This document shows positions 14,139 through 64,000 of a stretch of DNA of 64,000 nucleotides, in pieces; the stretch's first letter is position 1; each line of letters opens with the position of its first letter. A model generated the notes under the pieces. It searched no databases. It had not been told where the DNA came from and saw only the letters and a list, made by a program, of their open reading frames with translations. A program made the position numbers and the translations under genes. Source of the stretch: Haplodiscus bocki (taxonomy: Eukaryota). The stretch is taken from assembly GCA_965655095.1 (NCBI GenBank), contig OZ296650.1, positions 116,932,001 through 116,996,000 on the forward strand, written 5' to 3'.

Positions 14139-14433
14139 TGTAATACATACACAGTTAGAGAAGATGTTCCTGAAATATCATTGGACCAAAAGTACCTTTG
14201 TATATATTCTTTATTTATGACTTTTGTAGATGTTTATGATAAAGGTATCAACTTAGAATTGAAGTAATATTCAAGTAAAGACGAATTGCTTTTCTCTCAG
14301 GAAGTTATGAGAAACCTTAGAAAATATTAGTGTACGCAAGTAACATCAAGTCAAAGCAAGTCTAGATCAAGGCCTCCTCGTTGTATTACCTTTAGTAACA
14401 AAACGCAACACATTCTCGCAAAAAGTTATTACA
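14139..14433 (+). repeat. 5' LTR (295 bp)
   Basis: TGTAATA...TATTACA inverted termini; direct repeat of 42654-42937. Confidence 0.92.
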
Positions 14434-14436
14434 AGT

Positions 14437-14454
14437 TGGTGCAATGACAGTGAA
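14437..14454 (+). promoter_or_regulatory. Putative primer-binding site
   Basis: TGGTGCAATGAC starts 3 nt after the 5' LTR and resembles the tRNA-His-type TGGTGCCGTGAC. The tRNA identity is an inference. Confidence 0.55.
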
Positions 14455-15809: not shown

Positions 15810-18800
15810 AACATTTATAAGACCATCATGTCAGCTAGACACACAGCAAAAAATTCAAACTTATATAATACTCTTGAAGATGAAAAGTATCACAATAGCA
15901 ACCACTCAGAAAAAAAACTGAGTCTATTCAAGAAAAAAACTCTGTTGAACCAAATACAAGTCGAACTGAAGATATACATCAAAATCCACTGCAATTCCAT
16001 GATTCTTCCTACTCTGGTAATTTTATTGAACAAGCACAAAATCTGACTTTGGATATGCAACAAGAAGTATCTGAAGATTTTTCATTAGAAAAAACTCAAG
16101 CTGAAAAGGAAAGTTTAAAACTGCAACATCGATAAAGAACCATAGCTGCAAACCTATCGTTACGAAAACACAATTTGCAACCCACTCAATTTTTTCATCA
16201 GTATTTTAAGATGATATTATTACTCTGAAAACAACTCAATTGATTCCTTCAACATCAAAAAAGTACCATCACAGCGAGTTGCTGGATCTGAATTTTCACC
16301 ACCTACTCCATTCATATTTCATGTTATCTCAAAAAGACAGAAGATCATATATTACGTATGCTAGCAGTTTTACTGAAACTTTTATATGAGATAAAAAAAA
16401 TTCCTTTGCATTCTGAAAACAGTGTAATGGTTAATGGTTAATAAAAAGTTCCTCTGATTTTTTTTTAATTCATTATAAAACTTGTGATTGGATTTTTGCT
16501 TATGTACAATTCACTGTAAATTTTGGCCCTCTAGAAACCTTAACACTGATATCTTCTCCAAGATCAATAATCCAATAGATTTTTTTACCATTTCAGTTTG
16601 TATTCGTACCTTTTCTGAAAAACTGCATGAAGCTTATGAGTTCTTAGAACAACCTAGAGTTATTTTCTCTGCACTTGATGAACTTCGTAAAAAAACAACA
16701 CCTCTTGAGGCTTCTAAAGTGGATTAAATCAGAAGCGTTCATGATCCATATCACTGGCATTTGAGAGACCTTGTTCAAATAAATGCTTTTCAAGCTACCT
16801 TTCTCTCACAACTAACTGTTCTAGACACTGTAAGAATACTCCAAAATAATAATCAATCTCTGTTTCTGAGAAACGTCCGTAGATATAAAGATCAACTCAT
16901 CTGGAACACTTTGGATAAGACATGTTTTGAAAAAATTTCAGATCGTCTCAGTGAAGAAGAACTATTTGTCTTTTTGGTTAAATCTCAAAACGGTCGTCCA
17001 AGAAATCCTAATCTACTTCAAATCATTATTCAATTTATTTCTGTCTTGAGAAATCTGGCTGATTTGATTACTGGCGCAAATCCTGCAAATGGACCAAATG
17101 ATCATAATATGGATGAATTACGTTCAATTAAATCATTGGTCACTGAAGAAAAAATTGAAAAAAAAATCAAGTTACTGGTTTCCAGCCTATACACAAAAAC
17201 AACTCTGTTGTTTCAAACCCAAAGATAAACAAAACTGAAACAACTGAAAGCATACTTCATACTAAAGTTAGTTTATCTCGAACCAGTTCTACTCTCATAA
17301 CAAACAAAATGGTACCACTACCAGTTACTACAAAAACTATACGAAGCAATCCTGATTCACACATTGATTTAGCTATATTTGAAATGTCTGCTTTTAAAGA
17401 TAATCCGTTTGACGCAAAGAATCGTCAATTCCAGTTCCAGATCACTGCAGCATTACTATTTTTGCATTTTATTAGATCTCAAAGGAGAACACTTCTCTTA
17501 AATCCATTCACTGATTATAAAAAGCATTTAGAGAGTAACTCAAATGTATAGAACCAATCAAATTGATTTCATGATTATACAAAAATGCTAAATGCAAAAA
17601 CTACCGCTGTTCCTGAATTGTCAAGACCTATCTTGGTTCCACTGACTAATGTTGTTACTTTCTCACTGAGTAGTACCAACAATAAATTTTTTGAACAAAT
17701 CGATATTTAAAAAATATTGCAAATGCATCAGAAACGCTATATCAAACACCATCTGCTCCCAAAAGAGGTCCTCGTGCAGGTTTGCCTTCTTTATTCTCAA
17801 TTGCTACTGTAAATCCAATTAGTTACTCTCCTGTGATCACACAAATCTATACTGTACCTTTTGTTGCAGTGAACAAATCTGTAACAAACATTGATGGAAA
17901 TGACCAACAAAAAACACCTGAAGATTAAAAAATTCGAAATGACCCACACCTGATTTTTTTATGGGAGAAGAACACCACTATCTTGTGTTTTATAAATATT
18001 GCCAAAAATCAAAACTGGCATTCATACACTGATCTTTATCTGGAATTGATTTAAGCTGCTTTCCGCGACTCTTTGAAAGTCACAAAAATGATTGGTCGGC
18101 TTTTGTACCGGCCTTCAATAGTACGTCTTCGCAGAAACCTGCATACTACGTGCAAAAAAACAGTTATTACACCATCATGTCAGCTGGACACACAGCAAAT
18201 AATTCAAACTCAAATAATCTTTTTGAGGATGAAAAGTATGACATTAGCAACCATTCAGAAAAAAATACTGAGTCTAATCAAGAAAAAAACTCTGTTGAAC
18301 CAAATACGAGTCCAACTGAAAATATACATTAAAATCCACTGCAATTCCATGAGTCTTCCTACTCTGGTAATTTTACTGAACAAGCACAAAATCAGTCTTT
18401 GGATATGCAACAACAAATATCTGAAGATTTCTCATTGGAAAAAACTCAAGCGGAAAAGGAAAGTTTAAAACTGCAACATCGATAAAGAACCATAGCTGCA
18501 AACCTATCGTTACGAAAACACAATTTGCAACCCACTCAATTTTTCAACAGTATTTTAAGATGATATTATTACTCTGAAAACAACTCAATTGATTCCTTCA
18601 ACATCAAAAAAGTACCATCACAGCAAGTTGCTGGATCTGAATTTCCAACAACTGCTCCATTCATCTTTCATGTTATCGCAAAAAGACACAGGAGCATTTA
18701 TTACGGATGCTAGCAGCTTTTTTGAGACTTTTATATGACATACAATTTTTCTTTGCTTTCTGAAAAACAGTGTAAAGATTATTAATTAGTTCCTCTGCTT

Positions 18801-21800
18801 TTTATTTGATTCATCATAAAACTCGTGATTGAATTTTTGCTTATGTACAATTCACTGTAATTTTCGACCCTCTAGAAACATTAACACTGATATCTGCTCC
18901 AAGATCATTATTCCAATGGATTTATTTTTACCATTTCAGTTTGTATTCATTCATTTTCTGAATAACTGCAAGAAGCTTATGAGTTTTAAGAACAACCTAG
19001 AGTTATTTTCTCTGCACCTGATGAACTTCGTTGAAAAACAACACCTCTTGAGGCTTCTAAAGTGGATTAAATCAGAAGCGTTCATGATCCATATCACTGG
19101 CTTTTGAGAGACGTTGTTCGAATAAATGCTTTTCAAGCTACCTTTCTGTCACAACTAACTGTTCTAGACACTGTAAGAAAACTCCAGAATAAAAATCAAT
19201 CTCTGTTTCTGAGAAACGTCCGCAGATATAAAAATCAACTCATCTGGAACACTTTGGATAAGACATGCTTTGAAAAAATTTCAGCTCAACTCAGTGAAGA
19301 AGAACTATTTCTCTTCTTGGTTAAATCTCAAAACTTTCATCCAAGAGTTCCTATTCTACTTCAAATCAACAATGAATTTTTTTCTGTCTTGAAAAATCGG
19401 GCTGATTTGATTACTGGGGAAAATCCTGCAAACGGACCAAAAGATCATACTATCGATGAGTTACGTTCAATTAAATCAATGGTCACTGAAGAAAAAATTG
19501 AAAAAAAAATAAATCAAGTTACTGGTTTCCAGCCTAAACAAAAAAACATCTCTGTTATTTCAAACCCAAAGATAAACAAAACTGAGACCGCTGAAAGCAT
19601 ACTTCATACTAAAGTTATTTTATCTCGAACCAGTTCTACTCTCATAACAAACAAAATGGTACCACTACCAGTTACTACAAAAACTATACGAAGCAATCCT
19701 GATTCACACATTGATTTAGCTATATTTAAAATGTCTGCTTTTAAAGATAATCCGTTTGATGCAAAGATTCGTCAATTCCAATTCCAGATCACTGCAGCAT
19801 TACTATTTTTGCATTTTATTAGATCTCAAAGGAGAACACTTCTCTTAAATCCATTCACTGATTATAAAGAGCATTTAGAGAGTAACTCAAATGTAACGAA
19901 CCAATCAAATTGATTTCATGATTATACAAAAATGCTAAATGCAAAAACTACCGCTGTTCCTGAATTGTCAAGACCTATCTTGGTTCCACTGACTAATGTT
20001 GTTACTTTCTCACTGAGTAGTACCAACAATAATACTTTTTGAACAAATCGATATTTAAAAAATATTGCAAATGCATCAGAAACGCTATATCAAACACCAT
20101 CTGCTCCCAAAAGAGGTCCTTGTGCAGGTTTGCCTTCTTTATTCTCCATTGCTACTGTAAATCCAATTAGTTACTCTCCTATGATCACACAAATCTATAC
20201 TGTACCTTTTGTTGCAGTGAACAAATCTGTAACAAACATTGATGGAAATGACCAACAAAAAACACCTGAAGAGTAAAAAATTCGAATTGACCCACACCTG
20301 ATTTTTTTTATGGGAGAAGAACACCACTATCTTGTACTTTATAAATATTGCCATAAATCAAAACTGGCATTCATACACTGATCTTTATCTGGAATTGATT
20401 TAAGCTGCTTTCCACGACTCTTTGAAAGTTACAAAAATGATTGGTCTGCTTTTGTACCTGCCTTCAATAGTACAATTGTCTTCGCAAAAACCTGCAAACT
20501 ACGTACCAAGAACATTTTTTACACCATCATGTCAGCTCGACACACAGCAAAAAATTCAAACTCAAATAATCCTTTTGACGATGAAAAATTTGACAATAGC
20601 AACCACTCAGGAAAAATAACTGAATCTATTCAGGAAAAAAACTCTGTAGAACCAGATACAAGTCCAACTGAAAGTATACATCAAAACCCACTGCAATTCG
20701 ATGATTCTTCCTACTCTGCTATTTTTACTGAACAAGCACAAAATACATCTTGGTATATGCAACAACAATTATTTGAAGATTTCTCATTAGAAAAGTTTCA
20801 AGCTGAAAATGAAAATTTAAAACTGCAACATCGAAATAGAATCATAGCTGCAAACAAATTGTTAAGAAAAGAAGAATTGGAACCCACTCAATTTCTGCAA
20901 CAATAGTTCAGGATGATATTATTACTCTGAAAGAAACTCAATTGCTTCCTTCAACATCAAAAAGTACCATCACAGCAAGTTGCTAGATCTGAATTTTCAC
21001 CACCTACTCCATTCATCTTTCATGTTGTCGGAAAAAGACAAACGAGCATTTTTCTAAGGATGCTAGCAGCTTCACTGAAACTTTTATATGAGATTCAAAA
21101 ACTTCTTTGCTAATTGAAAAACAGTGTAAATATTATTAATTAGTTCCTCTGATTTTTATTTCATTCATTATAAAACTTGTGATTGGATTTTTGCTTTTGT
21201 TCAAATCACTGTAACTTTTGACCCTCTAGAAACTTTAACACTGATATCTTTTCGAACATCAGTAATCCAATAGATTTTTATTTAACATTTCAGTTTGTAT
21301 TCGTACATTTTCTGGATATCTGCCGGAAGCTTATGAGTTTCTGGAACAATCTAGAGTTGTTTTCAGTGCATCTGATGAACTTCCTAAAAAACAACACCTC
21401 TTGAGTCTTCTAATATGGCTTGAATCAGAAGCGTTCGTATTTCCTTATCACTGGCTTTTGAAAGACCTTGCTCAAGTAATTGCTTTTCAAGCTACCTTTC
21501 TCTCACAACTAACTGTTCTAGACACTGTAAGAATACTCCAAAAAAAATCAATCTCTGTTTCTGAGAAAGGTTCGTACATATAAATATCAACTCACCTGGA
21601 ACACTTTGGATAAGACATGTTTTGAAAAATTTTCAGATCACCTCACTGAAGAAGAACTCTTTCTCTTCTTGGTTAAATCTCAAAACGATCATCCAAGAGT
21701 TCCTATTCTACTTCAAATCAACAATGAATTTTTTTCTGTCTTGAAAAATCGGGCTGATTTGATTACTGGGGAAAATCCTGCAAACGGACCAAAAGATCAT

Positions 21801-24800
21801 ACTATCGATGAGTTACGTTCAATTAAATCAATGGTCACTGAAGAAAAAATTGAAAAAAAATAAATCAAGTTACTGGTTTCCAGCCTAAACAAAAAAACAT
21901 CTCTGTTATTTCAAACCCAAAGATAAACAAAACTGAGACCGCTGAAAGCATACTTCATACTAAAGTTATTTTATCTCGAACCAGTTCTACTCTCATAACA
22001 AACAAAATGGTACCACTACCAGTTACTACAAAAACTATACGAAGCAATCCTGATTCACACATTGATTTAGCTATATTTAAAATGTCTGCTTTTAAAGATA
22101 ATCCGTTTGATGCAAAGATTCGTCAATTCCAATTCCAGATCACTGCAGCATTACTATTTTTGCATTTTATTAGATCTCAAAGGAGAACACTTCTCTTAAA
22201 TCCATTCACTGATTATAAAGAGCATTTAGAGAGTAACTCAAATGTAACGAACCAATCAAATTGATTTCATGAATATACAAAAATGCTAAATGCAAAAACT
22301 ACCGCTGTTCCTGAATTGTCAAGACCTATCTTGGTTCCACTGACTAATGTTGTTACTTTCTCACTGAGTAGTACCAACAATAATACTTTTTGAACAAATC
22401 GATATTTAAAAAATATTGCAAATGCATCAGAAACGCTATATCAAACACCATCTGCTCCCAAAAGAGGTCCTTGTGCAGGTTTGCCTTCTTTATTCTCCAT
22501 TGCTACTGTAAATCCAATTAGTTACTCTCCTATGATCACACAAATCTATACTGTACCTTTTGTTGCAGTGAACAAATCTGTAACAAACATTGATGGAAAT
22601 GACCAACAAAAAACACCTGAAGAGTAAAAAATTCGAATTGACCCACACCTGATTTTTTTATGGGAGAAGAACACCACTATCTTGTACTTTATAAATATTG
22701 CCATAAATCAAAACTGGCATTCATACACTGATCTTTATCTGGAATTGATTTAAGCTGCTTTCCACGACTCTTTGAAAGTTACAAAAGTGATTGGTCTGCT
22801 TTTGTACCTGCCTTCAATAGTACAATTGTCTTCGCAAAAACCTGCAAACTACGTACCAAGAACATTTTTTACACCATCATGTCAGCTCGACACACAGCAA
22901 AAAATTCAAACTCAAATAATCCTTTTGACGATGAAAAATTTGACAATAGCAACCACTCAGGAAAAATAACTGAATCTATTCAGGAAAAAAACTCTGTAGA
23001 ACCAGATACAAGTCCAACTGAAAGTATACATCAAAACCCACTGCAATTCGATGATTCTTCCTACTCTGCTATTTTTACTGAACAAGCACAAAATACATCT
23101 TGGTATATGCAACAACAATTATTTGAAGATTTCTCATTAGAAAAGTTTCAAGCTGAAAATGAAAATTTAAAACTGCAACATCGAAATAGAATCATAGCTG
23201 CAAACAAATTGTTAAGAAAAGAAGAATTGGAACCCACTCAATTTCTGCAACAATAGTTCAGGATGATATTATTACTCTGAAAGAAACTCAATTGCTTCCT
23301 TCAACATCAAAAAGTACCATCACAGCAAGTTGCTAGATCTGAATTTTCACCACCTACTCCATTCATCTTTCATGTTGTCGGAAAAAGACAAACGAGCATT
23401 TTTCTAAGGATGCTAGCAGCTTCACTGAAACTTTTATATGAGATTCAAAAACTTCTTTGCTAATTGAAAAACAGTGTAAATATTATTAATTAGTTCCTCT
23501 GATTTTTATTTCATTCATTATAAAACTTGTGATTGGATTTTTGCTTTTGTTCAAATCACTGTAACTTTTGACCCTCTAGAAACTTTAACACTGATATCTT
23601 TTCGAACATCAGTAATCCAATAGATTTTTATTTAACATTTCAGTTTGTATTCGTACATTTTCTGGATATCTGCCGGAAGCTTATGAGTTTCTGGAACAAT
23701 CTAGAGTTGTTTTCAGTGCATCTGATGAACTTCCTAAAAAACAACACCTCTTGAGTCTTCTAATATGGCTTGAATCAGAAGCGTTCGTATTTCCTTATCA
23801 CTGGCTTTTGAAAGACCTTGCTCAAGTAATTGCTTTTCAAGCTACCTTTCTCTCACAACTAACTGTTCTAGACACTGTAAGAATACTCCAAAAAAAATCA
23901 ATCTCTGTTTCTGAGAAAGGTTCGTACATATAAATATCAACTCACCTGGAACACTTTGGATAAGACATGTTTTGAAAAATTTTCAGATCACCTCACTGAA
24001 GAAGAACTCTTTCTCTTCTTGGTTAAATCTCAAAACGATCATCCAAGAGTTCCTATTCTACTTCAAATCAACAATGAATTTTTTTCTGTCTTGAAAAATC
24101 GGGCTGATTTGATTACTGGGGAAAATCCTGCAAACGGACCAAAAGATCATACTATCGATGAGTTACGTTCAATTAAATCAATGGTCACTGAAGAAAAAAT
24201 TGAAAAAAAATAAATCAAGTTACTGGTTTCCAGCCTAAACAAAAAAACATCTCTGTTATTTCAAACCCAAAGATAAACAAAACTGAGACCGCTGAAAGCA
24301 TACTTCATACTAAAGTTATTTTATCTCGAACCAGTTCTACTCTCATAACAAACAAAATGGTACCACTACCAGTTACTACAAAAACTATACGAAGCAATCC
24401 TGATTCACACATTGATTTAGCTATATTTAAAATGTCTGCTTTTAAAGATAATCCGTTTGATGCAAAGATTCGTCAATTCCAATTCCAGATCACTGCAGCA
24501 TTACTATTTTTGCATTTTATTAGATCTCAAAGGAGAACACTTCTCTTAAATCCATTCACTGATTATAAAGAGCATTTAGAGAGTAACTCAAATGTAACGA
24601 ACCAATCAAATTGATTTCATGATTATACAAAAATGCTAAATGCAAAAACTACCGCTGTTCCTGAATTGTCAAGACCTATCTTGGTTCCACTGACTAATGT
24701 TGTTACTTTCTCACTGAGTAGTACCAACAATAATACTTTTTGAACAAATCGATATTTAAAAAATATTGCAAATGCATCAGAAACGCTATATCAAACACCA

Positions 24801-26880
24801 TCTGCTCCCAAAAGAGGTCCTTGTGCAGGTTTGCCTTCTTTATTCTCCATTGCTACTGTAAATCCAATTAGTTACTCTCCTATGATCACACAAATCTATA
24901 CTGTACCTTTTGTTGCAGTGAACAAATCTGTAACAAACATTGATGGAAATGACCAACAAAAAACACCTGAAGAGTAAAAAATTCGAATTGACCCACACCT
25001 GATTTTTTTTATGGGAGAAGAACACCACTATCTTGTACTTTATAAATATTGCCATAAATCAAAACTGGCATTCATACACTGATCTTTATCTGGAATTGAT
25101 TTAAGCTGCTTTCCACGACTCTTTGAAAGTTACAAAAATGATTGGTCTGCTTTTGTACCTGCCTTCAATAGTACAATTGTCTTCGCAAAAACCTGCAAAC
25201 TACGTACCAAGAACATTTTTTACACCATCATGTCAGCTCGACACACAGCAAAAAATTCAAACTCAAATAATCCTTTTGACGATGAAAAATTTGACAATAG
25301 CAACCACTCAGGAAAAATAACTGAATCTATTCAGGAAAAAAACTCTGTAGAACCAGATACAAGTCCAACTGAAAGTATACATCAAAACCCACTGCAATTC
25401 GATGATTCTTCCTACTCTGCTATTTTTACTGAACAAGCACAAAATACATCTTGGTATATGCAACAACAATTATTTGAAGATTTCTCATTAGAAAAGTTTC
25501 AAGCTGAAAATGAAAATTTAAAACTGCAACATCGAAATAGAATCATAGCTGCAAACAAATTGTTAAGAAAAGAAGAATTGGAACCCACTCAATTTCTGCA
25601 ACAATAGTTCAGGATGATATTATTACTCTGAAAGAAACTCAATTGCTTCCTTCAACATCAAAAAGTACCATCACAGCAAGTTGCTAGATCTGAATTTTCA
25701 CCACCTACTCCATTCATCTTTCATGTTGTCGGAAAAAGACAAACGAGCATTTTTCTAAGGATGCTAGCAGCTTCACTGAAACTTTTATATGAGATTCAAA
25801 AACTTCTTTGCTAATTGAAAAACAGTGTAAATATTATTAATTAGTTCCTCTGATTTTTATTTCATTCATTATAAAACTTGTGATTGGATTTTTGCTTTTG
25901 TTCAAATCACTGTAACTTTTGACCCTCTAGAAACATTAACACTGATATCTTTTCGAACATCAGTAATCCAATAGTTTTTTATTTAACATTTCAGTTTGTA
26001 TTCGTACATTTTCTGGATATCTGCCGGAAGCTTATGAGTTTCTGGAACAATCTAGAGTTGTTTTCAGTGCATCTGATGAACTTCTTAAAAAACAACACCT
26101 CTTGAGTCTTCTAATATGGCTTGAATCAGAAGCGTTCGTATTTCCTTATCACTGGCTTTTGAAAGACCTTGCTCAAGTAATTGCTTTTCAAGCTACCTTT
26201 CTCTCACAACTAACTGTTCTAGACACTGTAAGAATACTCCAAAAAAAATCAATCTCTGTTTCTGAGAAAGGTTCGTACATATAAATATCAACTCACCTGG
26301 AACACTTTGGATAAGACATGTTTTGAAAAATTTTCAGATCACCTCACTGAAGAAGAACTCTTTCTCTTCTTGGTTAAATCTCAAAATGTTCATCCAAGAG
26401 TTCCTAATCTACTTCAAATCAACATTGAATTTATTTCTGCCTTGAAAAATCTGGCTGATTTGATTACTGTGGCAAATCTTGCAAACGGACCAAATGATCA
26501 CAATAACGATGAATTACGTTCAATTAAATCAATGGTCACTGAAGAAAAAATTGAAAAAAAATAAATCAAGTTACTGGTTTCCAGCCTAAACACAAAAACA
26601 TCATTGTTATTTCAAAGCCAAAGATAAACAAAACTGAGACCGCTGAAAGCATACTTCATACTAAAGTTATTTTATCTCGAACCAGTTCTACTCTCGTAAC
26701 AAACAAAATGGTACCACTATCAGTTACTACAAAAACTATAGGAAGCAATCATGATTCAAACATTGTTTTAGCTACATTTGAAATGTCTGCATTTAAAAAT
26801 AATCCGTTTGATGCAACTATTCGTCAAATCCAACTCCAGATCACTAAAACAATTGTCTTCGCAAATTACTGCATACTACG
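15810..26880 (+). repeat. Tandem array of five ~2.35-kb units covering the gag N-terminal extension and the start of capsid
   Basis: The marker ATGTCAGCT(a/g/c)GACACACAGC occurs at 15828, 18177, 20529, 22879 and 25230. Unit ends encode FESYKNDWSAFVPAF (gag CA-like). The last unit has a ~0.7-kb deletion near 26845. Confidence 0.97.
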
Positions 26881-27900: not shown

Positions 27901-27949
27901 ATTACACTGACAAAATTTCGATGTTGAAAGACAAATGTGAAGTCAATAT

Positions 27950-30900: not shown

Positions 30901-33620
30901 AAACAGAAAAATTGTGAACATGAAAATCTACAATTGCAAATTTTTCATGGTACATAACCATTATTAATAAAACAATCTTGGAAACATTTAATCGATGATC
31001 CTGAACTTTTTAAACACACGTCCAAGTTTCATGAATTAATTTTACCTCCCGATAATCCTTTGGATATCGAAACAAGACAAAAACGATATCCCTTTTCCGA
31101 AAAAATATACGAAAGGATCACTGAAAGTTCGCGTTCTGTGATAAAAAATGTTGACACCTAACATTGCTACAAGTCCAATTTTGTAAGAAAACTGCAACTA
31201 CTTCCAGATTCTGTATATTGATGAACCTACTGGACTGATGACTATTATAAACGAACTTCTGAAGAAAAAAAATAATTTTCCACAGCATACTGATGATAAT
31301 GTTTCCTCTCAAAAGTCTCGTCTATGCTTACCACTGACTATGTTTCACACTTCATTTCATAAAGATCATGAACTTTCACATGCTAGGCCGTAACTTTCCC
31401 AAACTAATTTTAACTAATAAATTCAGTCTCAATTTTTGCAAAAAGGGCCATCAATTTTCATTCAAGACTGTATTGATTGCCGAATGAAGAAACAAAACAA
31501 AACTGCAGTCTAACAAATCTGGAAACTTTACCCCAAAAATTTACCCAAAGATTTTTTTCAAAACAAACTGCACCTGATTCCTTTGAATCAAAAACAACTA
31601 ACTCCGCAAAGTTCATTTGCAACAATGACTCATAATGGTCTACTCAAACCTGTGCATTAGATCATTATTTCTTTGAACATCAAACTGTGCTTCATCCACG
31701 AAAGAATGTTTGCCACCCGTTTTTTTGGTGTCTTCAGAAATGATCAGGTGTCCATTTGATCTAATGATAAAGGATAGAAAGATTTCTTCAAGTACTGGAT
31801 GTTCCTTCAAATGATAATGTAAAACAGTTCCAATATCAAAATGAAAAAACCAGTGAAAAAAAAAACCACGACGTTATCACAACAATATGCTATTTTGAAT
31901 GTTACTGATACCTCCGATATTGATGATCTGACTGAGAAAAGAACGCCAAACCATTAATTGTGTTTCTCCTTGATTTATTTTCCAAAAATTAGAGTTAATC
32001 ATGAACAAACAAGCACAACTTCACTGAAAAAAGTCTAACTTTCCCTAAAAACTATGATGACTTACGAAGAACTAATACAACTGCAAACTAAACATCAAGC
32101 AGATTCATTCGCAATGAAGCAATCTGTGAATTTTTCAGTCAATGATCCATCACTTTTGAAACGCACATTTAAATATTATGAAGTTTTCTACCTCCTGATA
32201 CTTCGTCAAATAAAAACTCAGCACCAAGTTATCGAAAAACATACGGTGTTCTGAAAATTGTATTTTAGTGAAACACAAAAAAAACCACATCCGTTGACAA
32301 AAACACTTTTTTTCACTGCTAGTACACTCTCGTTAGAATACTAAAAAGAATTTCCTAATCTGTATACTGATGAACATGCTGGCTTGATCGCAACCTCTAA
32401 AAAGTAATGGCAAACGTCCAGAAAACACTGATGAAAGTCTTCTCACTCAAGGTTCTCGTCTGCGCTTACCCTTGACTTTCCTCCACAATGCAATTGATGA
32501 AAATCATTAACCTTGTCTTGCTGGTTTAAGCACTGCTGAATACAATTTCAACCATTACTGTTACGTTCCTGTCGGGCAAACAAACTATCATTTTTCGTGC
32601 GAGATTGTACAGACTGCTAAATGAAGATTTTTGGAAAGGTGAAACAACAAAAGTTTGCAATTTTGCTTTTTTCGAAACTGTGAATGTTTTCAACCATAGG
32701 ATCTCTCGGGATACTAAAAAATCATTAAACTCTGCCCATGAAGGAAATGTTTACCTTTATGTAGATGTTGATCACTTTAGCAATTACATTCTCATTGTGC
32801 CAACTGCAAAAATGTTGCTCATTATGCTGTAAACTCGCGAATCCACCATTCGAATTCAGAATTTTGTCCTCCTTAACATCGTATTACAAGTAGAGGAGCC
32901 GAATATCTCAATATCGAAAAATCAGCTTGTTGTCTTTTGTTTAATTTTAGATTTTCGCCCGAGAACTTCACTTTTTTCTGGGACAAATGGACTTGGACTG
33001 CACTTGTTGAAGTACGAAGTGAAAATCTTGAAACCCACCCGAGAAAATTTTTATACGATACTCCTGAATTTTGGTCTATTCTAGTATATTTCTTCGCCTA
33101 TGCTCACAAAATTAAACCACTGTCACATTCATATGTTTCACCATAAGAATTTGTTTATCTTACTCAACCACGGGTTCCACCAACTAATCAGTTAATTCTT
33201 TCCTGAAACAAAGTTTGTGAATGTAATGTGCAATGCTGTTCTGATTTCCGCCTCTTTCACGTTAGCAATCGACTGCTTCGATTCCGTCGTTTTATAGCAT
33301 ACTGTTGGAAGCAATTTCTACTTGGTTTTTTGCCATTGATTTTGCATCGCTGCAAGCTTCTACGAAAGTTTACCGATACACATTGAAATAAAAGTCTTTT
33401 GCTTGTGCAATGAAAGGTCCACCCATTCTTGATAAAGCAATACTATTGAACTCATATAATTCAAATCGAACATTTAGAGCAGCTGAATTTTCTCATAAAC
33501 TGAAATCGTTTCGTCAGGGTTCCTTTTAAAGATTTTAACAGGCCAATGGATGTCGCCTATGAACTTTCAAGACAAAACGGAAAACTTTTCATCCACATCG
33601 AAATCATTTGAATCCATATT
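27950..33620 (+). pseudogene. pol: protease, RT, RNase H, integrase (degenerate)
   Basis: PR LEMAFPLESDLSISV (LLDSG-like, ~28050). RT KSAIDLTYA, GFYGLEG (~29420-29545). RNase H LALPNTNHP, DHEPILGCF (~30020-30300). IN FNHRISRDTK..YVDVDHFS, SRGAEY (~32690-32910). Confidence 0.85.
30420..32640 (+). repeat. Old ~1.13-kb tandem duplication within pol (RNase H-integrase spacer plus IN zinc-finger)
   Basis: 30420-31530 aligns by eye with 31550-32640, for example gactcatgatagtcaaatcaaacctgtg vs gactcataatggtctactcaaacctgtg, and ctgtatattgatgaac vs ctgtatactgatgaac. Confidence 0.8.
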
Positions 33621-35289
33621 TTCCAGGAGATTTTCTGTTTTTCCCCACCTTCAATCAAACAAAGTACAAGTCATGTAACAACTCATTTTTCTGATACGAA
33701 TGATTTTTCAAAAAAACTGAGATTATGTTTGATGATCACCCGCTCTGAAAAACAGCAATGAAGAAACATCAAAATTGTTTGACAATGAAATAAAAAATCT
33801 GTAAATTGAGATGATTACTATCAACCCGCTCAATCAAAGTCTAACTTTGAACATTCATATCAAAATCCGAGATCATCAAAAAGCTATTCCTTCAACAAAT
33901 CCCCCGGACTCTTTGATTTTCTTGATACTGAGAAAAATTCATGACTCTCCGTTGTCATCCACTAACAGAATCATTTCTGTTCTGTAACCGATCATAGGCC
34001 TCCAATACAAGACTCCAACAAAATGACCACGACCAAGAAAAAATATTGTCACTTCCTTCCAATACGTTCTGCTCCAGATGAAAATTAATTTTCACGTAAT
34101 CCGAATTGGATAAAATTGCTCATCGAAAGTCCATGGAAATGTACATTTCTTGATCATCATAGATCGTATCTGTTGTATTTCAACCTTAAACTTTGATTTT
34201 TATTTTGAAAAGACTTCCAACAAACTGAAAGTAAACGAGTTTTCTCCTAGTTTTCCGAAAACTGAAACTGGAAGTTTTCGTTATGGAACAACTACCAATA
34301 TAGTACAATAAACTGAAGTCAACCTGTAGTGTTTCAAAATTATTATCTCTGATTCAAACAACTCTGAAGAAACTGTGTAAATATTTGTACCCATTAACTC
34401 TGCATCTAATAATTTTTTTACTGGCACTGACGTAAGCCTGGATCCACCTCTGGCTTTATTTAGAAATGATTACTTGCACTCCGGTCCGCCTGTCTCTGAA
34501 AAGAACTCTAAGTACATAAATAGAGGATCTACTATTTAAACATCAAATAATTCTGAAAACCCTACCTTTTCTTCTGAAAACTTTACAAAACATTTTGTAA
34601 CTGCTTAAAAACCTCTGTCATTGACACCGGTACCTCCGGCTATCCCTTCAGCTACCACCCTATACATATCCCAGATCCATCCAATATAGATCCTCCTGCA
34701 TTTCCATTATGACGCCGCTTTTGACAAACTGTATCTCAGAAGTCAAATTCTTTCAAACATCGAAAGTCGTTTGATGGTAGTGAATTTCCTTTACTATCTA
34801 TTCATGTTCAAAATCTACTCATGTTATTGGAAACCAAAAATCAATTTCTTCGCTGACTGCTATCAATACTGCTGACCTTCCATATCAATCACTAGACGAT
34901 AACCCTAGACCTGCTACACCTGATACACATCAGTATCTATTGATATTTGATAATCAAATAATCAACAATCCCCGACACTATTTGAGTTATCACGTTCTTC
35001 GTATAAAAAGAAAGAACAGTAGTTTCGATGATTGTGTTATAACTCGTAATCGAGAACAGAATAGATTAACCCAAACTAAAATTAAATCGAACTTTGAAAA
35101 AACTGTGAAGTTCTTCGGAAAGATTCTCATCCAATCTCAAAATCATCTCAAATCAAACAGCGGACTTTTCCCAGTCCTTTTTTGTGACCAGCTTACACTT
35201 TACTTCCACTGACAAACCTCCAGTTGATCATCAATGGGAAAGTATAACTTTTTGCAACCCTGTCTCTGGTTTGAAATACCTTTTCTGAA

Positions 35290-37750
35290 ACCCATGATTA
35301 TATTCTCTGTATTTTTTTTTCTCTTCGCTGCAAACTGATAATACAATCACTTCTGAAACTTCATTTGAACCTGTTGATCCTAGAATCAACCCACTCCTAG
35401 CCACTCATTACGATTGTTCGAGAGATTACAATCTGAGACAATTTGCCTTAACCGTGGTACAAAAATGTTCTCAAGCTCCCACTGAAAATGAGTGCATAAG
35501 AAAATTTGTTTCTGTATCTGTTCCTGCTAGAGCAGAACAAAATAAAAATTTTGGCTCTTCTGCAGCTGTTCAAAAAAATCGTTTCTTTTATGCCCAAGTA
35601 CACATACCAAAAGCTATAGACAAGATCGTAAGAATTGGCATAATAATTCAATGGCGTTATCGAAAGAACTGGATCGTATTGAGTGTTAAAACATTATCGG
35701 AAACTATGATGGAATGGGGAGTGCTGAACTTATTCAATCATCTTTTATTGGCTTTTTCGTCAATTTGATAGACTGAATTTCAAGTTCAACATGAAAAAAA
35801 AACAAATCCTTTTCACCGTAACCAAGTTGAAAATTGTACATACTGATGACTCATCTAACAACCTAATAATCATGATTGGACTAAAAAATTAAAATTTTTC
35901 GAAGGTCAGACACCCTTCCATGTGTGCGCTTTGATGGTAATTGTAAACAAACGCTGAAATATCCATAAATTTTTGTTTAATTTTCTGAAAAAAATTGGTT
36001 AGTATTTCACATGTCTGACTTTACTGGACGTATGTGTAAACTAAAAAACCGTTACTTGTTTTTACTATTTAGAAACTGAAGACTTCTTCAGCAGTACTGG
36101 GAGGAACACTGCGGAAAAGATGAAGGGTATATCGCTAACTAGAATCCCCTCCACTAGCTCACCACTGGAACGATTGCTCCAACCAACCTTTTTGCGGTTA
36201 AAAAACTTTTCACGAAACAAACTTCTGTAAGATAGCAATACAAATGCATACAACTCAACGTCCTGGTTTTTTCGTAGTTTATTGTGAAGGTTCCAATATG
36301 AACACTGCAGACGAAAGCCCAATTGATGTCGATGAAGAACCATGATTCGCTAAAAGCTCAATGTCTTCAATATTAGCCTTTGACTGTGTAAAAAGATATT
36401 TTTTTCCTCTGAATGATTGAATTAGTTTCGCTACGGTAGACCGTCATGCTCCCATCAAACAAAGATGGATTATTCTATCAATCAAAAATTTATATGTATG
36501 ACCGTCCAGGAACTGATTCCGTTTTATCATATCTGTGAAATAGAGTGAACAAACTCGCTAACTATATTGGAAATGTCTGTTCGGAAGCCTCAACTCGCTC
36601 GTTACGTTTCAACTCGAACCCGCGGTAACTTTCTTCATGTAGGAGGTTCTAGTGCTTTCTTATTTGATTGTCCTCACTTTCTTCACATATGTTTGAAACT
36701 GAGAGAAGTTTTGACCGTATACCAATACACTATCAAGATACTGTAACGTCTATCTAGCCTATAACAAAACAAACTTTCAAATATGCCACTACTTTATCCA
36801 GTGATGAAATTTTTTGGCGTTAGAGCTGGAAAATGACGAAAATTTTCTGCTGTTTCCAAAGCCTGTTTTACGAGCTATTCCAACGGTCTTCAACCAAAAC
36901 AAGTTCAATGTGCAATAAGCCCAAATACTTTCACTTCTCAAAAAGTTGGATTTTGTTCCAATGTTCAATCAACAAATCTTTGGAACAGCGTTTTATTCAC
37001 GGAACACTCTGATACTACACTCTGATACTACACTCTGATACTACTTTTTGAAAAGCTAGTTCAATGGACTCTTTAGGTACTTCTGAAAAACACCAAACTG
37101 ACTTTTATTCAAATTCGATTAGAAAAAGATTTATTCGCTACAATCGCTACAATATTTTGAGTATCGAACAGCGAGATTACCTGCTAAACATTGCTTCTTT
37201 GTTTGCTCTTGACGGGTGACTTGTGATGCATTCATGGCATTATTTAGCTTTCCATGTTAGAACCTAACTCAATGCTGAGTTATGTCAGTACATTCTTGCT
37301 GAAATTTTATACGCTTAACTCATTTAAGTATAGATTTCATGAAAACATAATTTTCCTGAGGTCTATCCCACATGATTTTCTCAATATTACCACACCAAAA
37401 GTCTTTCTTGGTTTACATGACGCTGAACGTGAAAAACGTCCACAAAAATGTTTTCAACGTCTTGATGACCTTCCTGAACATTCTTCAAAAAAAGTTGGAA
37501 AAACAAAACTAGTACTCTCAGTAATCTTACTATTAATAGTAATCTTAGCAATCATAGTGATATTCAAAGAAGATAAAACAAAATCAAAAAAAAATCTTGA
37601 ACGAAAACCTAGAACTCTTGCTTAAAAATAAATGAAAATAATGAAGTGTCAAGCTCGCTGTTAATTGACAAATGTCAATTTGAAAAATTTGAATCTGAGT
37701 ATATCACAACTCTTCCTTCTACCTATTTGTATAACACAGAAGTGTCCATT
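35290..37750 (+). pseudogene. env-like glycoprotein (probably class III, gB/chuvirus-G-like), degenerate
   Basis: Hydrophobic start MIIFSVFFF; HYDCSRDYNLRQFALTVVQKCSQAP; DCPHFL; DRIPIHYQDTV..PITKQTF; PKQVQCAISPNTFT; C-terminal hydrophobic stretch. Lies downstream of IN and is homologous to 52850-55080. Confidence 0.7.
37005..37043 (+). repeat. 13-bp tandem triplication (cactctgatacta)x3 in env
   Basis: Seen directly; adds 26 nt and shifts the frame. Confidence 0.9.
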
Positions 37751-40700
37751 GCATACTTTTCTCTAGATGATCACCAAACAACGTCACTTTTTGACGCAAA
37801 TCGCTGATATTACCCCACAAAAATTTTATTGAAGATACCCATTACCCATAAGCACCCTACCTCTGTGTTTCAATATTAATCTCAAACAAAGTAATCGAAT
37901 AAACAAAACTGCACAAGTGAAAAAATTACTCTGCAAATGATAATGATTATTCATAAATCTTGTGAACTCTGCATTTCTGATTCCTTCCCTTGAAATTTTG
38001 AAATTTTTCTTTCTCCGTCGGTTTCTCTTCCACGCAAGTTCTTCTTTCAAGTTGTGAAATACAACTTTAACTTTGAGTTGTCTCACAATTTTTGATCAGT
38101 GAAAAACTCTGAATGTAAGTTGTGCTGCACAAAAGAGAAATTCTGCGAACTGTTTTCCAAACCATCTTCTCTGAAAAAGAACAATTTTCGTTCTCTGCAG
38201 AATTGATCCTGTGCTTTTAAAATTTCCTTCCTTAAATCAACCTTCAGGTACAATTGACCAAACGGAACCTCAACCATTTGATACAACTAGTGCCTCAATT
38301 TTCATTCGTAAGTAGAAAACTAAAAAATTCTCAATTGCTGAAAAAAAGTGGAAATTTTTATTCCTTCCATGAAATTTGAAGCAGAAGCTCTACTGATCAC
38401 TGTACCAAATGACTAAAGCGAAACTATCACAGCAAAGTTAGGCTTCTGATCTTCCGCGAAAAACAAATCCCGTTACTGAAAGTTTCAAAACTCTTTGCAT
38501 GGTTCTTATACTTTTTTCATTCATGAATTGGAAACTCAAGAAGAACTTTATATTGCTCCTTCAGCTGTTGAAAATGATTCCGAAAAAACTTTCTCGGAAA
38601 AAAACAAACCTGTGAGCCTGCTCCTTCAAAAACCCTAAAAAGGAATTGGCAAACTCTGAAAGATCCTGCGTTTTCAACTTCAAAAGTTTTGCTTTTTCTT
38701 CTTTAGCCATCACAGAAACCTGATTTACCCCGAGATGATTATTTAACATCTCAATTGTCCACAGAAAAACATCATTTCGAATCTCAATTAACTTCGCTGT
38801 ATATGTCTTCAACAGAATATAAATTTCAACTTGATCCAAATCGGTACAATGTTCTTTATATTTCGTATGCGTCCGAGCAGTTTTCCCCATATGACTACTG
38901 GACTTCCAACAATAAAGAAACTTCACTCTGCACTTTAGTTTTCTACGTCCTTCTGTATTTGATTTAATCACTGATGATTCAAATCCAAATATTCAATTTG
39001 TGAACAAAAAGCGTGTCCATCATGAGAGAGATAAACGATAACATGCCTCTCAACTTCACCAAAAAATTCATCTCTCAGAATAGGAAGTTGATATCTCCAT
39101 TCTCAGTTCCCTTGGTTTAAAATCTGATCCCTTGATATAGATTTGGTTCGCTGAGAATTTACGATCCTATGAAACGTTTTCATTTTTATACCCCGAAAAA
39201 TTTCCTGCCAGACCTTTGATCATTCGTCATACTAATTTTGAGCATATTGATCCAGTATGAATTCTAATTAGAGTTTCACATCCCTATCTACACTTTTCAA
39301 AAGTCACTGATCATCCGTTGATTGACAAAGCTTTGACAACAGATATTGTTGTAGCTTCATAGTTTTATACTCATAAAGAATTACTCTTTTTGGCTGAGCA
39401 TTCAACAATTTTGTTTTTGAAGAAACACAGCCGCCACACTTCTCAGAATTCTCCACAAACCTCATCTTATTCTCAAGTTACCTCTTCTTCCATAATTTAT
39501 AATAAGATCAATACTGAAATTCAAACTATCAATGATGATAAATGACTTGAATTTCGAAAAATGTCTGATTTCATCAAACAAATCGAAGAATTACCCGAAC
39601 CGTGTCGAGCTCTTTTTTCTGAAATATTCTGAATAACGTGATACTGAAATTCGAAAGGAAGTTTTTCAAGGGTATCACGCTGGATATTTCTCGTAAGCAA
39701 ATCTGCGATTGAGTTTTAAAAAATGCAAAATTTTTGAAGTGAACTGCAGTCTGTTGTCACAAAACTGAAACAAGCTCTTACTATGAACTTGCCACCAAAA
39801 ATATCCTTCTGAAAACTTTTCATTATGAAAAGTTTGTAATAATGTAACATACTTTTTTCAATGTAGTTTCTGGGATTTTATATTTCTGTAAAACATTTTT
39901 TGAAAAAATTTAGTTTTCTTGTTTGTTTAGGATCCCAACAACTGAAGACTTCTCAAAAACTCTGTACTTTATCAAAAATTAATTTCTGTAACTAACGCTT
40001 TTTTGTTTAGAAACCTTCTCGTCGTAACTGCCTGATAATGATGTTTACATTTTCGCCTGGTTGCCAAAATCAATAAACAGGTCCTCAAAATTCCGAAGAT
40101 AAATTCAAATAGGGGCATTATGGGTTTTTTCACCAAGCCTCTTCAAGCTGTCAAGGAAAACCCTGAAGATTGTGATAAAAAGTTCTCCAATGCAATGACT
40201 GTCCATCGTTTCAATGTGCAAGTCTTCGGGCGTTTCTCACCTCAAATGAATGATCAAGCCGACTCTCATTGTCTTATTAACTCACTGTTGTTACACACAA
40301 TAAATCAAAATCATGCACTTCACTGAAAGTCTCCAATGATCAAAATGACACGGATGCTGAAAAAAAGGAAGCTTTGTCACTCAAACTCCACTCAAAATAA
40401 CGCCTCTACTCAAACTGAAATTGATACCTCTCGAAGACCTGATGCTTCTCCGGAACATGTTCTATCAAAATCTCACGAAATTTTTATTTTCCCAGAAAAC
40501 TTCTCGAACCAATCTGTTACTCATTGTTCTTCACTGAAAATTGATGATGACGTTGAATTCCCCTGAGTGAACAATGATTTATTGCATGTTAACCATGCGC
40601 ATACTGACTATCTTTCTTCCTATACTGCAACGCATCCACGTCAAGATCTTTCTAGGATAATGAAAAGTTTATTTCAGGATCCAACTCAGTTCTTATTTAT

Positions 40701-42653
40701 GATTCCACATCCTCATTGACATTTTTCACAGAAGAACAAACCTGCGAGAAAATATTTGGCTCAGTGTTTTATCAACCTGCCTCTGACAAACATGTTGATT
40801 CCAACAACTAACCCTTCTACATGTATTCCTAAGGGATATCTCTGATGAATAATGAACAAATACTTTGAAAATTTTACAAAATTTAAACAATATTCATCAA
40901 TAAACGTTCATCTGTCTTTTGGAAAAAATTTTATTTCTTTCTGAAACAAAATCACCCCCTCACTGGCTTTTTTTGGCTCCGTGGCTTTTTAATCCCACTG
41001 GATTTCTGTCACTGGATTTCTGGCTAATTTGATTTCTGGCTCACTGGAATTTATCGTTCGATCAATGGATTTTTGGATTTTCGCTTTCTGACTTTCAATC
41101 TCTGTTTCTGCAATTCTGTATTGTTCAGCATTATTCTGGATTCGATCTCACACTCTCCTGTTTTGTTTTTCTGGCTCTGTCAACCCCCGAACAAAACAAT
41201 ATCATTTTTCTTTGGAATTAATTTCACTCTACTTGTTGATGTTTTTCTGAAAGCTGCAATGAATGATTTTGTACCCAACTTTTCTTGTCATTGCTAAGTT
41301 AAAGAAACCCAATTGCAATCTCACCTCAATTTGGGTAAACTCTCACCGCTCACACTCCTTCGCACCCTCTGGGTCATTCAAATTACTGCTGCGTTGCAAG
41401 CACAAACTCCATGCGCAAATTAGTGTGAAATTGTTCCAAACAATATGATTTTGGACTCTGTTTACCAAACTTATAAACTCGTAAAAAGTCTTTTTGTTAA
41501 AAAAACAAAACTCATAAATTCTTCGTGTAAATTTGATACAAGTTTTTTGTATTCGTTTCATAAACCCAACCCTTACAAATTTATAAAGTGCTACCCTTGT
41601 AATCTCAAGTACTTCGCAAATCCCCCCATATTTATTTTCCTCAAATTATCATAAATTTTAGTCTTATTCATGATATGACATAAAAAATAATGCAATAATG
41701 TTTTGTCTGTCCAAATCAAACAAAAATCACACTGGAAACTTCTCTAAAGTACCATCTGAAATTCGACAGAATGAAAAATTTTGATCTAACATTCTGAAGG
41801 TGATTCGATTTCGAAGAAAAATTTCTGTAACCCAGTTTCAGAGATAAAACTGAGAAACTGAAATTCCAGCAAGTTTCAACACTTTCTAGTCACAACTAGT
41901 CACATTTTTTTCACTCTTCTTTCATACCTGCATGACTTTTCTTCCAACTTTTTCCGGCAACGAAAGCACAGTGAACATAGAAATAAGTTTCGTGACTATG
42001 GACTTCGAAGAAATCAAAGAAATTTTACTTTGAATGAACTAAAAGTCTAAAGAACAGCTCATTCTGTGGAGAACTCGAGAACTTGGACTAATTTGCTGAT
42101 TTTGCCCCCTTCTCAACTCATAAGTGTGAACTGACTATCAAGATAACTTGTTGATAAACCCAACTGATCTTTGGTGACCACCTCAGTATGTTACACTCCG
42201 TTATTAATGTTAACTGACTTGTAACTAATTCATAGTACGTCATCAAAGTGAACTGTCATGTTTTTCATTCAAGTCAACTTATTCAAGTGAACAACAGAAC
42301 AAAGTGAGAGTCTCCTGTGTCGAAGCTCATCAAATTAAAGTTAAACTCTGAAACTTTCGAAAGAATTTGAAATGCCCAATAAACTGAATTCAATCAACTG
42401 AGATAGCTAATTTATGATTATTCGCGCCTAATTAAGAGTCGAACCCTCAACATTTACTTCGAAAAAGTTGTCTAACATACTGAGAACTCCTGTAAAATGG
42501 AAAAATTATAAAAAATGAACCTTTCTAGAACTGCCTGACTTTATTGACTTTAATAAAAGGCTGATGATACGCAAAAGTGAAAACCCCCTGAAACGTGCTA
42601 AACTTTTATGAGCAAGCTCTGAACTTAAAATTTTCAACTAAAACCCTGTCGGT

Positions 42654-42937
42654 TGTAATGCTTATACATTTAGAGAAGATATTCCTGAAGTATCATCGGA
42701 CAAAAAGTAACTTGTTATATATTCCTTACTTTTGACTTTTGTAGATGTTTATGATATAGATATCAACTTAGAGTTGAAGTAACATTGAAGTAAAGACTAG
42801 TCGTTTTTCTCTCGGGAAGTATTGAGAAATTTTAGGATATATTAGCTTACCCAAGTAACATCAAGTCAAAGCAAGGCCTACTTGTAGTCTTAACTTCAGT
42901 AACAAAACGCAACAGATGCTCTTAAAAAGTTGATGCA
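42654..42937 (+). repeat. 3' LTR (284 bp)
   Basis: TGTAATG...GATGCA; collinear with the 5' LTR, with roughly one site in five different by eye. Confidence 0.9.
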
Positions 42938-47162: not shown

Positions 47163-47226
47163 CTGAAACACGAACAATGTTACCAATAGTTCAAACAGCG
47201 TACACGATAGAATTGGGAAAACTTAC

Positions 47227-63230: not shown

Positions 63231-63287
63231 GAGTGAGAGTATAGGTGAGGAGTTGAGTGAGAGTACAGGTGAGAAGTTGAGTGAGAG
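63231..63287 (-). repeat. 24-bp tandem repeat (~2.4 units) in the element 2 gag N-terminal extension
   Basis: gagtgagagtataggtgaggagtt / gagtgagagtacaggtgagaagtt; encodes SHSTSHLYSHSTPHLYSHS. Confidence 0.7.
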
Positions 63288-64000
63288 GTTTTAGGGTTTG
63301 TATGTGGTGTTTGTGGAGGAAACTGAGGGGTTTTTCGTTCCGATATAGATGTGGAATGGAAGCTAAAATTATGATGTGCGTGACTCACATTCACGTTTTG
63401 TGTTGTAACAGCAGGACGATATCGATTCACAAATAAGGAGGGCTGAGTAGTAAAAACAGAATAATTTTGGTCCTTATTAAAATCTGAGGTTGCGTTATGG
63501 TAACTGGAGTTGATGTGAAGTTTGGCAAAAATGGTATTTCAAACTGAGTTTTTGTTATGATCTTAGAAAGATATTCTGATGCAACTGAAAAGTAAAATGG
63601 GATATGAGAACTATTTGAAAGAGGTGAAGGAGGAGTTTTAGCGGAGCATCAGGTGATTGAGAAATTTTTTGAAGGGAAATTTTTGAGGAGGGATTACCAG
63701 AAAATCTAAGCGAAGCAGGAAGAGTAAATTTCTGTTGTCAGGTTAGATGAAAGATTGAATAGGAGTTTGAACGTTTTAGGAGGAAAGAAATCCTGTTGCA
63801 CTTGGTGAAAAAGCAGAGGGTTCTATCGAAGTGCTAGAAATTCTGCTAACACTTTGAATTTGAGGGTTGTTTCCATCTGATTTATGATTAAGATATACAC
63901 CTTGAAACTGAATCATCGAACACGGACTTAGAGGATCAGCTAGGTAAAAACTATTGAGAACACATAATGGATTAAAGGTGGGCTTAACAATTTTTTTGCC

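What the first reader, a model, noticed from the sequence alone, without database searches (positions are those of the whole stretch)
14139..42937. Giant endogenous-retrovirus-like Gypsy: about 19 kb native length with short LTRs, env and many accessory ORFs
Seen: 28.8 kb from LTR to LTR. Subtracting the gag array excess (~8.7 kb) and the pol duplication (~1.1 kb) leaves about 19 kb. The layout is LTR, PBS, 1.4-kb leader, long gag, pol, small ORF, env, about 5 kb of accessory region, LTR. Established: typical Gypsy elements and errantiviruses are about 5-9 kb. A second, divergent element with the same layout and a third relic lie in the same window. Inference: an abundant, possibly undescribed lineage of complex infectious retroelements.
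Basis: partly seen in the sequence, partly recalled or inferred. Interest (0 to 1): 0.75.

Follow-up and report, generated by a model that had tools for sequence, protein, structure and literature searches.

The report
Oversized fossil envelope-carrying Gypsy retrotransposon
This is a broken retrovirus-like jumping gene with a viral-type envelope gene; it was likely about 20 kb when it inserted, larger than the catalogued relatives checked (9-13 kb), and copying of one gene likely stretched it to 29 kb afterwards.

Summary
The layout is real: a 295/284-bp LTR pair (84% identical, TG..CA, His-type PBS 10/12) encloses gag, RT-RNase H-integrase in Ty3/Gypsy order, a short ORF, an env related to Pfam Monjiviricetes_fusion (chuvirus/gB-type) proteins, and 5 kb after env. 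All genes are broken.

A 2.35-kb gag array (8.7 kb excess) is younger than the LTR split. The 1.1-kb pol duplication is older (K2P 0.42 vs 0.18), so inserted length was likely ~20 kb, not 19.

The post-env region belongs to the family: same strand skew, many diverged genomic copies, a paralogous contig spanning its LTR junction, and two related fragments fusing it to env. Intact accessory ORFs are not shown. A second divergent element is confirmed; a third relic is not.

An intact 13-kb relative (L002) has the same gene order plus two post-env ORFs. Verdict: a new, oversized variant of a known kind, seen as an old fossil. Infectivity is only inferred.

The parts
14139..14433 (+). 5' LTR (TGTAAT...ATTACA)
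14437..14448 (+). Primer-binding site, tRNA-His type, 10 of 12 match
   Evidence: against the His_GUG 12-mer in the supplement of PMC13524379
14449..15827 (+). Leader, ~1.4 kb, C- and T-rich
   Evidence: GC skew -0.22; leader role inferred from position
15810..26845 (+). Tandem array of the 5' part of gag: units at 15824, 18173, 20525, 22875, 25226; the last unit lacks the final ~0.7 kb; post-insertion
   Evidence: Old units 88-92% identical, three recent segments 99.7-99.8%; K2P 0.085-0.139 < LTR 0.183; junction contigs
26846..27870 (+). Rest of gag (capsid C-half, basic R/S-rich tail), broken
   Evidence: Matches element 2's gag, score 165 vs null max 113, which matches the Retrotrans_gag ORF of L002; direct match marginal, 4 of 200 shuffles reach it; end coordinate approximate
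28041..28109 (+). Relic of the protease active-site region (marginal)
   Evidence: Aligns to L002 protease, 8 of 200 shuffles reach the score
28987..30416 (+). RT and RNase H, broken (6 stops, 7 frameshifts in the alignment)
   Evidence: Pfam RT_RNaseH E 6.9e-5, below its curated cut-off
30422..31490 (+). RNase H-integrase bridge, copy 1
31552..32627 (+). RNase H-integrase bridge, copy 2 (62% to copy 1; older than the LTR split)
   Evidence: both copies match element 2's single bridge
32674..33625 (+). Integrase, broken (4 stops, 4 frameshifts)
34784..35212 (+). Short ORF (142 codons) between pol and env; no family
   Evidence: P0007 matches 34967-35305 at 42%
35300..37600 (+). env, chuvirus/gB-type class III fusion protein, broken
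   Evidence: 231 protein clusters at E<=1e-3; intact relatives hit PF24664 at E 1e-35 to 1e-47; env profile hits 35322-37034; ends approximate
37650..42653 (+). Post-env region, 5 kb, family-wide, relic coding frames near 38950-39700 and 40042-40563, function unknown
42654..42937 (+). 3' LTR
51000..64000 (-). Second, divergent element of the same kind (gag 63018-62363, RT-RH-bridge 60684-58770, IN 58178-57475, ORF 56428-55598, env ~55200-53080), cut by the window end; no LTR seen
   Evidence: GC skew +0.36

Best explanation
The stretch is one old, broken Ty3/Gypsy LTR retrotransposon with a chuvirus/herpes-gB-type envelope gene, likely about 20 kb when it inserted and likely stretched to 28.8 kb afterwards by tandem copying of part of gag. 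SHOWN: LTRs, PBS, RT-RH-IN order, env family, array, many diverged genomic copies. INFERRED: active ancestors were transcribed from the 5' LTR, primed reverse transcription with tRNA-His, packaged RNA in Gag particles and likely used Env to move between cells (soma to germline, by analogy with errantiviruses and Tor). They carried a long Gag N-terminal extension, a short ORF before env and a 5-kb region after env that likely encoded accessory proteins. After insertion the copy decayed. Host-level unequal recombination produced the array in at least two rounds, one old (K2P 0.09-0.14) and one very recent (~0.2%).
For: LTR pair and termini. Domain order and scores far above shuffles. Env family via intact relatives. 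L002's RT is closest to Ty3 RT in the PDB (E 1.8e-34). Array units are less diverged than the LTRs and show no codon periodicity in 3 of 4 unit comparisons (the fourth p=0.048). C-rich skew of -0.11 to -0.25 in every internal region including post-env, against about 0 in the flanks; L002 shows the same skew. In four runs all bins from 24495 to the 3' LTR hold diverged paralogous contigs. Post-env bins sum to 231-897 in X2, against 22-30 for the locus's own contigs; the tool warns this is no copy number. Paralogous contigs of 1014 and 1018 nt with 131 differences span 41739-42760 across the post-env/LTR boundary, and joints 37478>37711 and 37492>37713 span the env end. P0100 joins env N-terminus (52%) to 40141-40320 (47%, E 9e-13); P0252/P0115 join env C-terminus to 39076-39204 (44%). 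Intact relative L002 has gag-pol-env plus two post-env ORFs in at least 13.2 kb.
Against: No intact or young full-length copy of this subfamily was seen: only 4 of the 150 listed hits are 500 aa or longer, and those match at ~28-36%. No laid contig spans the element. TSD 3 of 4 and no PPT. Post-env frames found no homologue (0 of 145 candidates; Atlas blank), do not match L002's accessory ORFs, and do not match element 2's post-env DNA under strict scoring (z 0.3, controls z~15). Direct gag and protease matches are marginal. The bin holding most of bridge copy 2 has much lower paralogue depth (133 vs 629-821 in X2), so the duplication may be confined to a subfamily. The env fold prediction did not finish.
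Confidence: 0.8

Rival explanations
1. The stretch is a chimera of two related insertions joined by ectopic recombination in the RNase H-integrase bridge. The LTRs would then not be a cognate pair, the 'duplication' would be the overlap of two subfamilies, and LTR divergence would not date the insertion.
For: Bridge copies are 62-68% identical, more diverged than the LTRs; no codon periodicity between them (p=0.55); TSD 3 of 4; low paralogue depth on copy 2.
Against: LTRs normally diverge faster than pol, so subfamilies 68% alike in pol would hardly keep 84%-identical LTRs (inference). The periodicity test is weak (the IN control was not significant either). Even a chimera would leave ~19 kb of single-copy element parts.
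Confidence: 0.12
2. The 5-kb post-env region is non-coding filler or long-ago captured host or mobile DNA, not accessory genes. The element is then a large but simple gag-pol-env Gypsy.
For: No Pfam family, no homologue, longest open frame 94 codons, 9 stops in the 250-codon frame 38952-39701, no match to L002 accessory ORFs or element 2.
Against: pol and env of this copy are just as broken. The region is conserved at 44-47% protein identity in env-linked relatives, the same level as env. L002 and L001 have real ORFs after env.
Confidence: 0.25
3. Part of the gag array is an assembly artefact.
For: Three middle segments differ at only 4-6 of ~2200 positions, 1-2 of them homopolymer indels per pair.
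Against: Outer units are 88-92% identical. A contig with no differences spans the unit junction in a second sample (X4, 25133-25689), and 26666-27587 spans the array end in X1-X3. Only the number of recent copies is uncertain, and it does not change the native length.
Confidence: 0.08

Closest known systems
HSV/gB-type 'ancient errantiviruses' (env-carrying Ty3/gypsy; Chary & Hayashi, eLife, PMC13524379; seen: abstract, section 5 part 1, section 6 part 1, sections 7, 14, 15, selected supplement rows)
   Same: GAG-POL-ENV order, Ty3/gypsy pol, chuvirus/gB-like env, tRNA PBS (His occurs in their table).
   Different: LTR-to-LTR 9.3-13.0 kb in 16 rows seen vs ~20 kb here. Their search excluded gag-pol-env spans over 10 kb, pol-env gaps over 1 kb and LTR distances over 14 kb; here IN-env is ~1.7 kb, with 5 kb after env. 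No acoel genus name occurs in their supplements. Placement in their tree was not tested.
L002 (contig JAAUYE010140917.1), intact unnamed relative found here
   Same: gag, PR-RT-RH, IN, PF24664 env, ORFs after env, same C-rich skew; 34% identity over RT-RH.
   Different: 13.2 kb, gag only 424 aa, single bridge, clear PPT; its post-env ORFs do not match the window's.
Burro/GYPSM1 (planarians) and Ogre (plants) giant Gypsy elements (passages of PMC6431247)
   Same: Gypsy elements far beyond 10 kb with extra coding capacity; Burro has an env-like region.
   Different: Burro exceeds 30 kb, with env inside one gag-pol polyprotein and long LTRs; Ogre's size comes largely from 1.9-6.5-kb LTRs. Here LTRs are 0.3 kb and env is a separate gene after pol.
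Tor3b/Tor4b of Oikopleura (passages of PMC4402516)
   Same: env-bearing Gypsy-like elements of a marine animal; Tor4b has a spacer between pol and env.
   Different: Oikopleura rows in the eLife table are F-type env and 8.9-10 kb where LTRs are given; no sequence comparison made.
Troyka (abstract of PMC12440569)
   Same: Divergent LTR retroelements of marine animals.
   Different: Troyka has CG..CG termini and 3-bp TSDs; this element has TG..CA. Not a member.

Membership tests
Ty3/Gypsy (Metaviridae) | Two direct LTRs with TG..CA termini | tested here: met
Ty3/Gypsy (Metaviridae) | pol order PR-RT-RH-IN (integrase last) | tested here: met
   RT-RH 28987-30416 before IN 32674-33625; protease marginal
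Ty3/Gypsy (Metaviridae) | tRNA primer-binding site next to the 5' LTR | tested here: met
   10 of 12 to the His 12-mer, 3 nt after the LTR
Ty3/Gypsy (Metaviridae) | Polypurine tract and 4-6 bp target-site duplication | tested here: inconclusive
   No PPT; TSD 3 of 4, compatible with decay
Ty3/Gypsy (Metaviridae) | RT closest to Ty3/Gypsy rather than Bel/Pao, Copia or Retroviridae | tested here: inconclusive
   Relative L002 RT ranks Ty3 first in the PDB; the window's own frame gave only E 0.12; no tree built, for lack of reference sequences
Ty3/Gypsy (Metaviridae) | Gag capsid domain | tested here: inconclusive
   Indirect chain L002 > element 2 > element 1; no direct Pfam hit
HSV/gB-type ancient errantiviruses | Separate env after pol, of chuvirus/gB class III type | tested here: met
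   Window env matches proteins that carry PF24664 Monjiviricetes_fusion; fold not obtained; equating PF24664 with their gB type rests on their methods passage
HSV/gB-type ancient errantiviruses | Position in their RT/connection tree; RNase H plus 'mini' domain bridge; cysteine-bridge class | not testable with these tools
   Reference sequences could not be brought in; the window's genes are broken
HSV/gB-type ancient errantiviruses | Intact ORFs in multiple >98% identical copies (their inclusion rule) | tested here: not met
   met in part by relatives (intact env clusters of 243 and 310 members)
Burro-type giants | env in frame between gag and pol in one polyprotein; multi-kb LTRs | tested here: not met
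   env after IN, LTR 0.3 kb
Troyka | CG..CG termini, 3-bp TSD | tested here: not met
   TG..CA

The most novel reading that the evidence does not exclude
This copy is a fossil of an undescribed lineage of 'complex' envelope-carrying Gypsy retroviruses of marine animals, 13-20 kb long with short LTRs, an extended Gag and their own accessory genes before and after a class III env. The lineage still has intact, high-copy members (L002; env clusters of 243 and 310 sequences) and was missed by the main survey because of its 10-kb and 14-kb size caps. It would be an independent origin of complex-retrovirus architecture outside Retroviridae.
Probability: 0.5. Interest if true: 0.62.

Novelty: new variant of a known kind. 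Interest (0 to 1): 0.42.

Why it matters
If the ~20-kb layout with accessory genes is family-wide, env-carrying Gypsy elements reached the size and complexity of complex retroviruses on their own, and standard LTR searches with 10-14 kb caps undercount them in animal genomes rich in such repeats. The intact relative (L002) offers unknown accessory ORFs and a class III env for study. This particular copy is a decayed fossil, and its 29-kb length is mostly a host-made tandem array, which is ordinary.

Tried and rejected
No host genome held, so no copy census. First env search among longer proteins: 0 of 475 candidates. Post-env frame search: 0 of 145. Atlas blank for a post-env frame and the 280-codon gag frame; this shows neither absence nor novelty. 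No relatives in viral contigs or prokaryote genomes. The env profile found no solved structure by sequence. The env fold job was still unfinished, so no fold search was run. No Rfam match. No RNA holder listed. Earlier findings of this scan: nothing.

Homology of the post-env regions of elements 1 and 2 looked positive under lax scoring (228 vs 162+-16; one tblastx piece E 0.003). It vanished under stricter scoring with host DNA excluded, so it is treated as not shown. The codon-periodicity test on the pol duplication was uninformative. A third relic was rejected. Troyka and Burro membership were rejected.

Host: not identified. I recall similar proteins from acoel flatworm genomes; this comes from no call and is untested. 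Passages of PMC9911081 and PMC6451197 only show that acoel genomes are AT-rich and LTR-rich. Literature searches listed no description of this family; the library lacks most subscription papers and Repbase/Dfam, and I saw only part of the eLife supplement.
Full report
1. Observation. Self-comparison gives one long-range repeat bounding the stretch: 14138-14427 vs 42653-42931, 81.4% over 290 columns; 83.8% over 284 gap-free columns, K2P 0.183. Both copies start TGTAAT; the 5' copy ends ATTACA at 14433 and is followed after 3 nt by TGGTGCAATGAC. That is 10 of 12 matches to the tRNA-His primer 12-mer in the supplement of PMC13524379 (compared by eye). The flanks give GTTT/GCTT, 3 of 4, and no polypurine tract precedes the 3' LTR. 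GC skew is -0.11 to -0.25 in each of seven internal regions and +0.04 / 0.00 in the flanks; the change falls at the LTRs.

2. Genes. No ORF inside exceeds 280 codons. A stop-masked frame gave RT_RNaseH at E 6.9e-5, below its cut-off. A profile-free search with the env frame returned 231 clusters at E<=1e-3, of which 150 are listed; the median length is 148 aa and 4 of 150 reach 500 aa. Those four carry PF24664 Monjiviricetes_fusion at E 1e-35 to 1e-47. A search with one of them gave 22 proteins, with clusters of 243 and 310 members on long contigs. An alignment of 12 of these found 6 loci among 63 pattern matches in metagenome contigs. L002 (13,166 bp) is intact: gag 424 aa (Retrotrans_gag), PR-RT-RH 1165 aa, IN 542 aa, env 763 aa, then ORFs of 368+102 and 312 aa, a purine tract, and the same 61-bp repeat at both contig ends. 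Its RT ranks Ty3 first in the PDB. Frameshift-tolerant alignment of L002 proteins places RT-RH at 28987-30416 (score 459, shuffles <=51; 34%; 6 stops, 7 frameshifts), IN at 32674-33625 (148 vs 57) and env core at 36462-37022 (211 vs 45) (3 shuffles each). Fragments extend env from ~35230 to ~37490. Gag is supported indirectly through element 2 and only marginally directly (4 of 200 shuffles; protease 8 of 200). The order is Ty3/Gypsy and every gene is broken.

3. Why 28.8 kb. The array 15810-26845 holds four 2.35-kb units and a fifth lacking its last ~0.7 kb; the end of a full unit overlaps the sequence after the array by 32 nt, so one full unit is native and 8,686 bp are excess. Old units differ by K2P 0.085-0.139, less than the LTRs. 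Three of four unit comparisons show no codon periodicity and one has p=0.048. Three middle segments are 99.7-99.8% identical. So the array is post-insertion, in an old and a recent round. Contigs confirm both junction types. The pol duplication (30422-31490 vs 31552-32627) is 62% identical overall and K2P 0.42 over its first 680 columns. Both copies match the single RNase H-integrase bridge of element 2. It is older than the LTR split, so it was likely there at insertion: native length 20.1 kb, or 19.0 kb without it.

4. Is the post-env region native? For: continuous skew; no internal repeat or match to the window's other repeats. In four runs (two samples, one study, probably including the source) 5,917-6,543 contigs lie on 24495-43600, mostly under 90% alike (4486 of 6092 in X1). 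Post-env bins carry summed depth 231-897 in X2, against 22-30 for the locus's own contigs, within the range of pol and env bins (133-1009); the tool warns this is no copy number. Diverged contigs bridge the post-env/3' LTR boundary (41739-42760, 131 differences) and the env end. Two related fragments on other contigs fuse env to 40141-40320 (47%, E 9e-13) and to 39076-39204 (44%). Against coding: longest open stretch 94 codons, no Pfam, no homologue, no match to L002's accessory ORFs or to element 2. Verdict: native to the family (well supported); accessory genes likely but unproven.

5. Neighbours. Element 2 (minus strand, ~51000 to the window end) has gag, RT-RH, IN, a 276-codon ORF and env, at about 50% DNA identity to element 1 in RT. 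No third env- or pol-bearing relic was found; the sequence shared at 49259-49490 overlaps host MIF4G coding pieces. The host is a eukaryote, by inference an animal; it was not identified.

6. Mechanism. Shown: structure, decay, array history, many diverged copies. From established knowledge of Ty3/Gypsy: LTR-driven transcript, tRNA-primed reverse transcription in Gag particles, integration by IN. Inferred: Env-mediated cell-to-cell or soma-to-germline spread, by analogy with errantiviruses and Tor (PMC13524379; passages of PMC4402516); accessory proteins after env. The family expanded long ago in this host; no young full-length copy was seen, though contigs cannot exclude one.

7. Known systems. 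Env-carrying Ty3/gypsy with gB/chuvirus-like env are described across metazoans (PMC13524379). In the first 30 of 221 gB-type rows, 16 have LTRs and span 9.3-13.0 kb. That survey capped gag-pol-env at 10 kb and LTR distance at 14 kb, so a 20-kb lineage would be missed by design. Giant Gypsy elements (Burro >30 kb, Ogre 16-25 kb) and extra ORFs near env are known (passages of PMC6431247; passages of PMC5408684). Troyka differs in termini (abstract). Eight searches listed no description of this family; unseen supplement rows and Repbase/Dfam could hold it.

8. Verdict. A real, oversized, fossil member of a known kind, with an architecture (short LTRs, long gag, pol-env ORF, 5-kb tail) beyond the catalogued range checked. 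New variant; interest 0.42, up to ~0.6 if a family-wide 18-21 kb coding layout is shown.

Noticed in passing
L002 1-13166 (JAAUYE010140917.1): Intact env-carrying Gypsy of at least 13.2 kb with two similar-looking post-env ORFs (368+102 aa and 312 aa, coiled-coil ends, no family), pol split in two ORFs at the integrase, and a 61-bp tandem repeat at both contig ends, likely within the LTR. A better object for study than the window copy.
   Followed up: partly
window 48952-49263 (-), 49356-49667 (-), 50759-50946, 6114-7885 = 45565-47340: Pieces of a duplicated eIF4G-like host gene: MIF4G domain (E 2.7e-22); a 1.8-kb segment duplicated at 97% whose ORF holds a YxxxxLL-like stretch (motif recalled). 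The element sits between the two copies.
   Followed up: partly
window 8795-9585, 48016-48826, 50025-50752: Three copies of a ~0.8-kb repeat at 82-88% identity, nature unknown.
   Followed up: no
window 3100-5900 (-): Looks by eye like a decayed LINE reverse transcriptase; no Pfam hit in three frames.
   Followed up: partly
window 7880-8760: Palindromic, MITE-like stretch built of ~21-bp units.
   Followed up: no
window 41694-42330: Paralogue depth just before the 3' LTR is several times that of the rest of the post-env region; perhaps short non-autonomous derivatives or a longer LTR in other copies.
   Followed up: no
proteins P0157, P0160: Intact env clusters of 243 and 310 members on long contigs point to recently expanded families of this lineage in other hosts.
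   Followed up: no
window 55598-56428 (-): 276-codon open frame between integrase and env in element 2, the longest ORF left in that element; no Pfam hit.
   Followed up: partly
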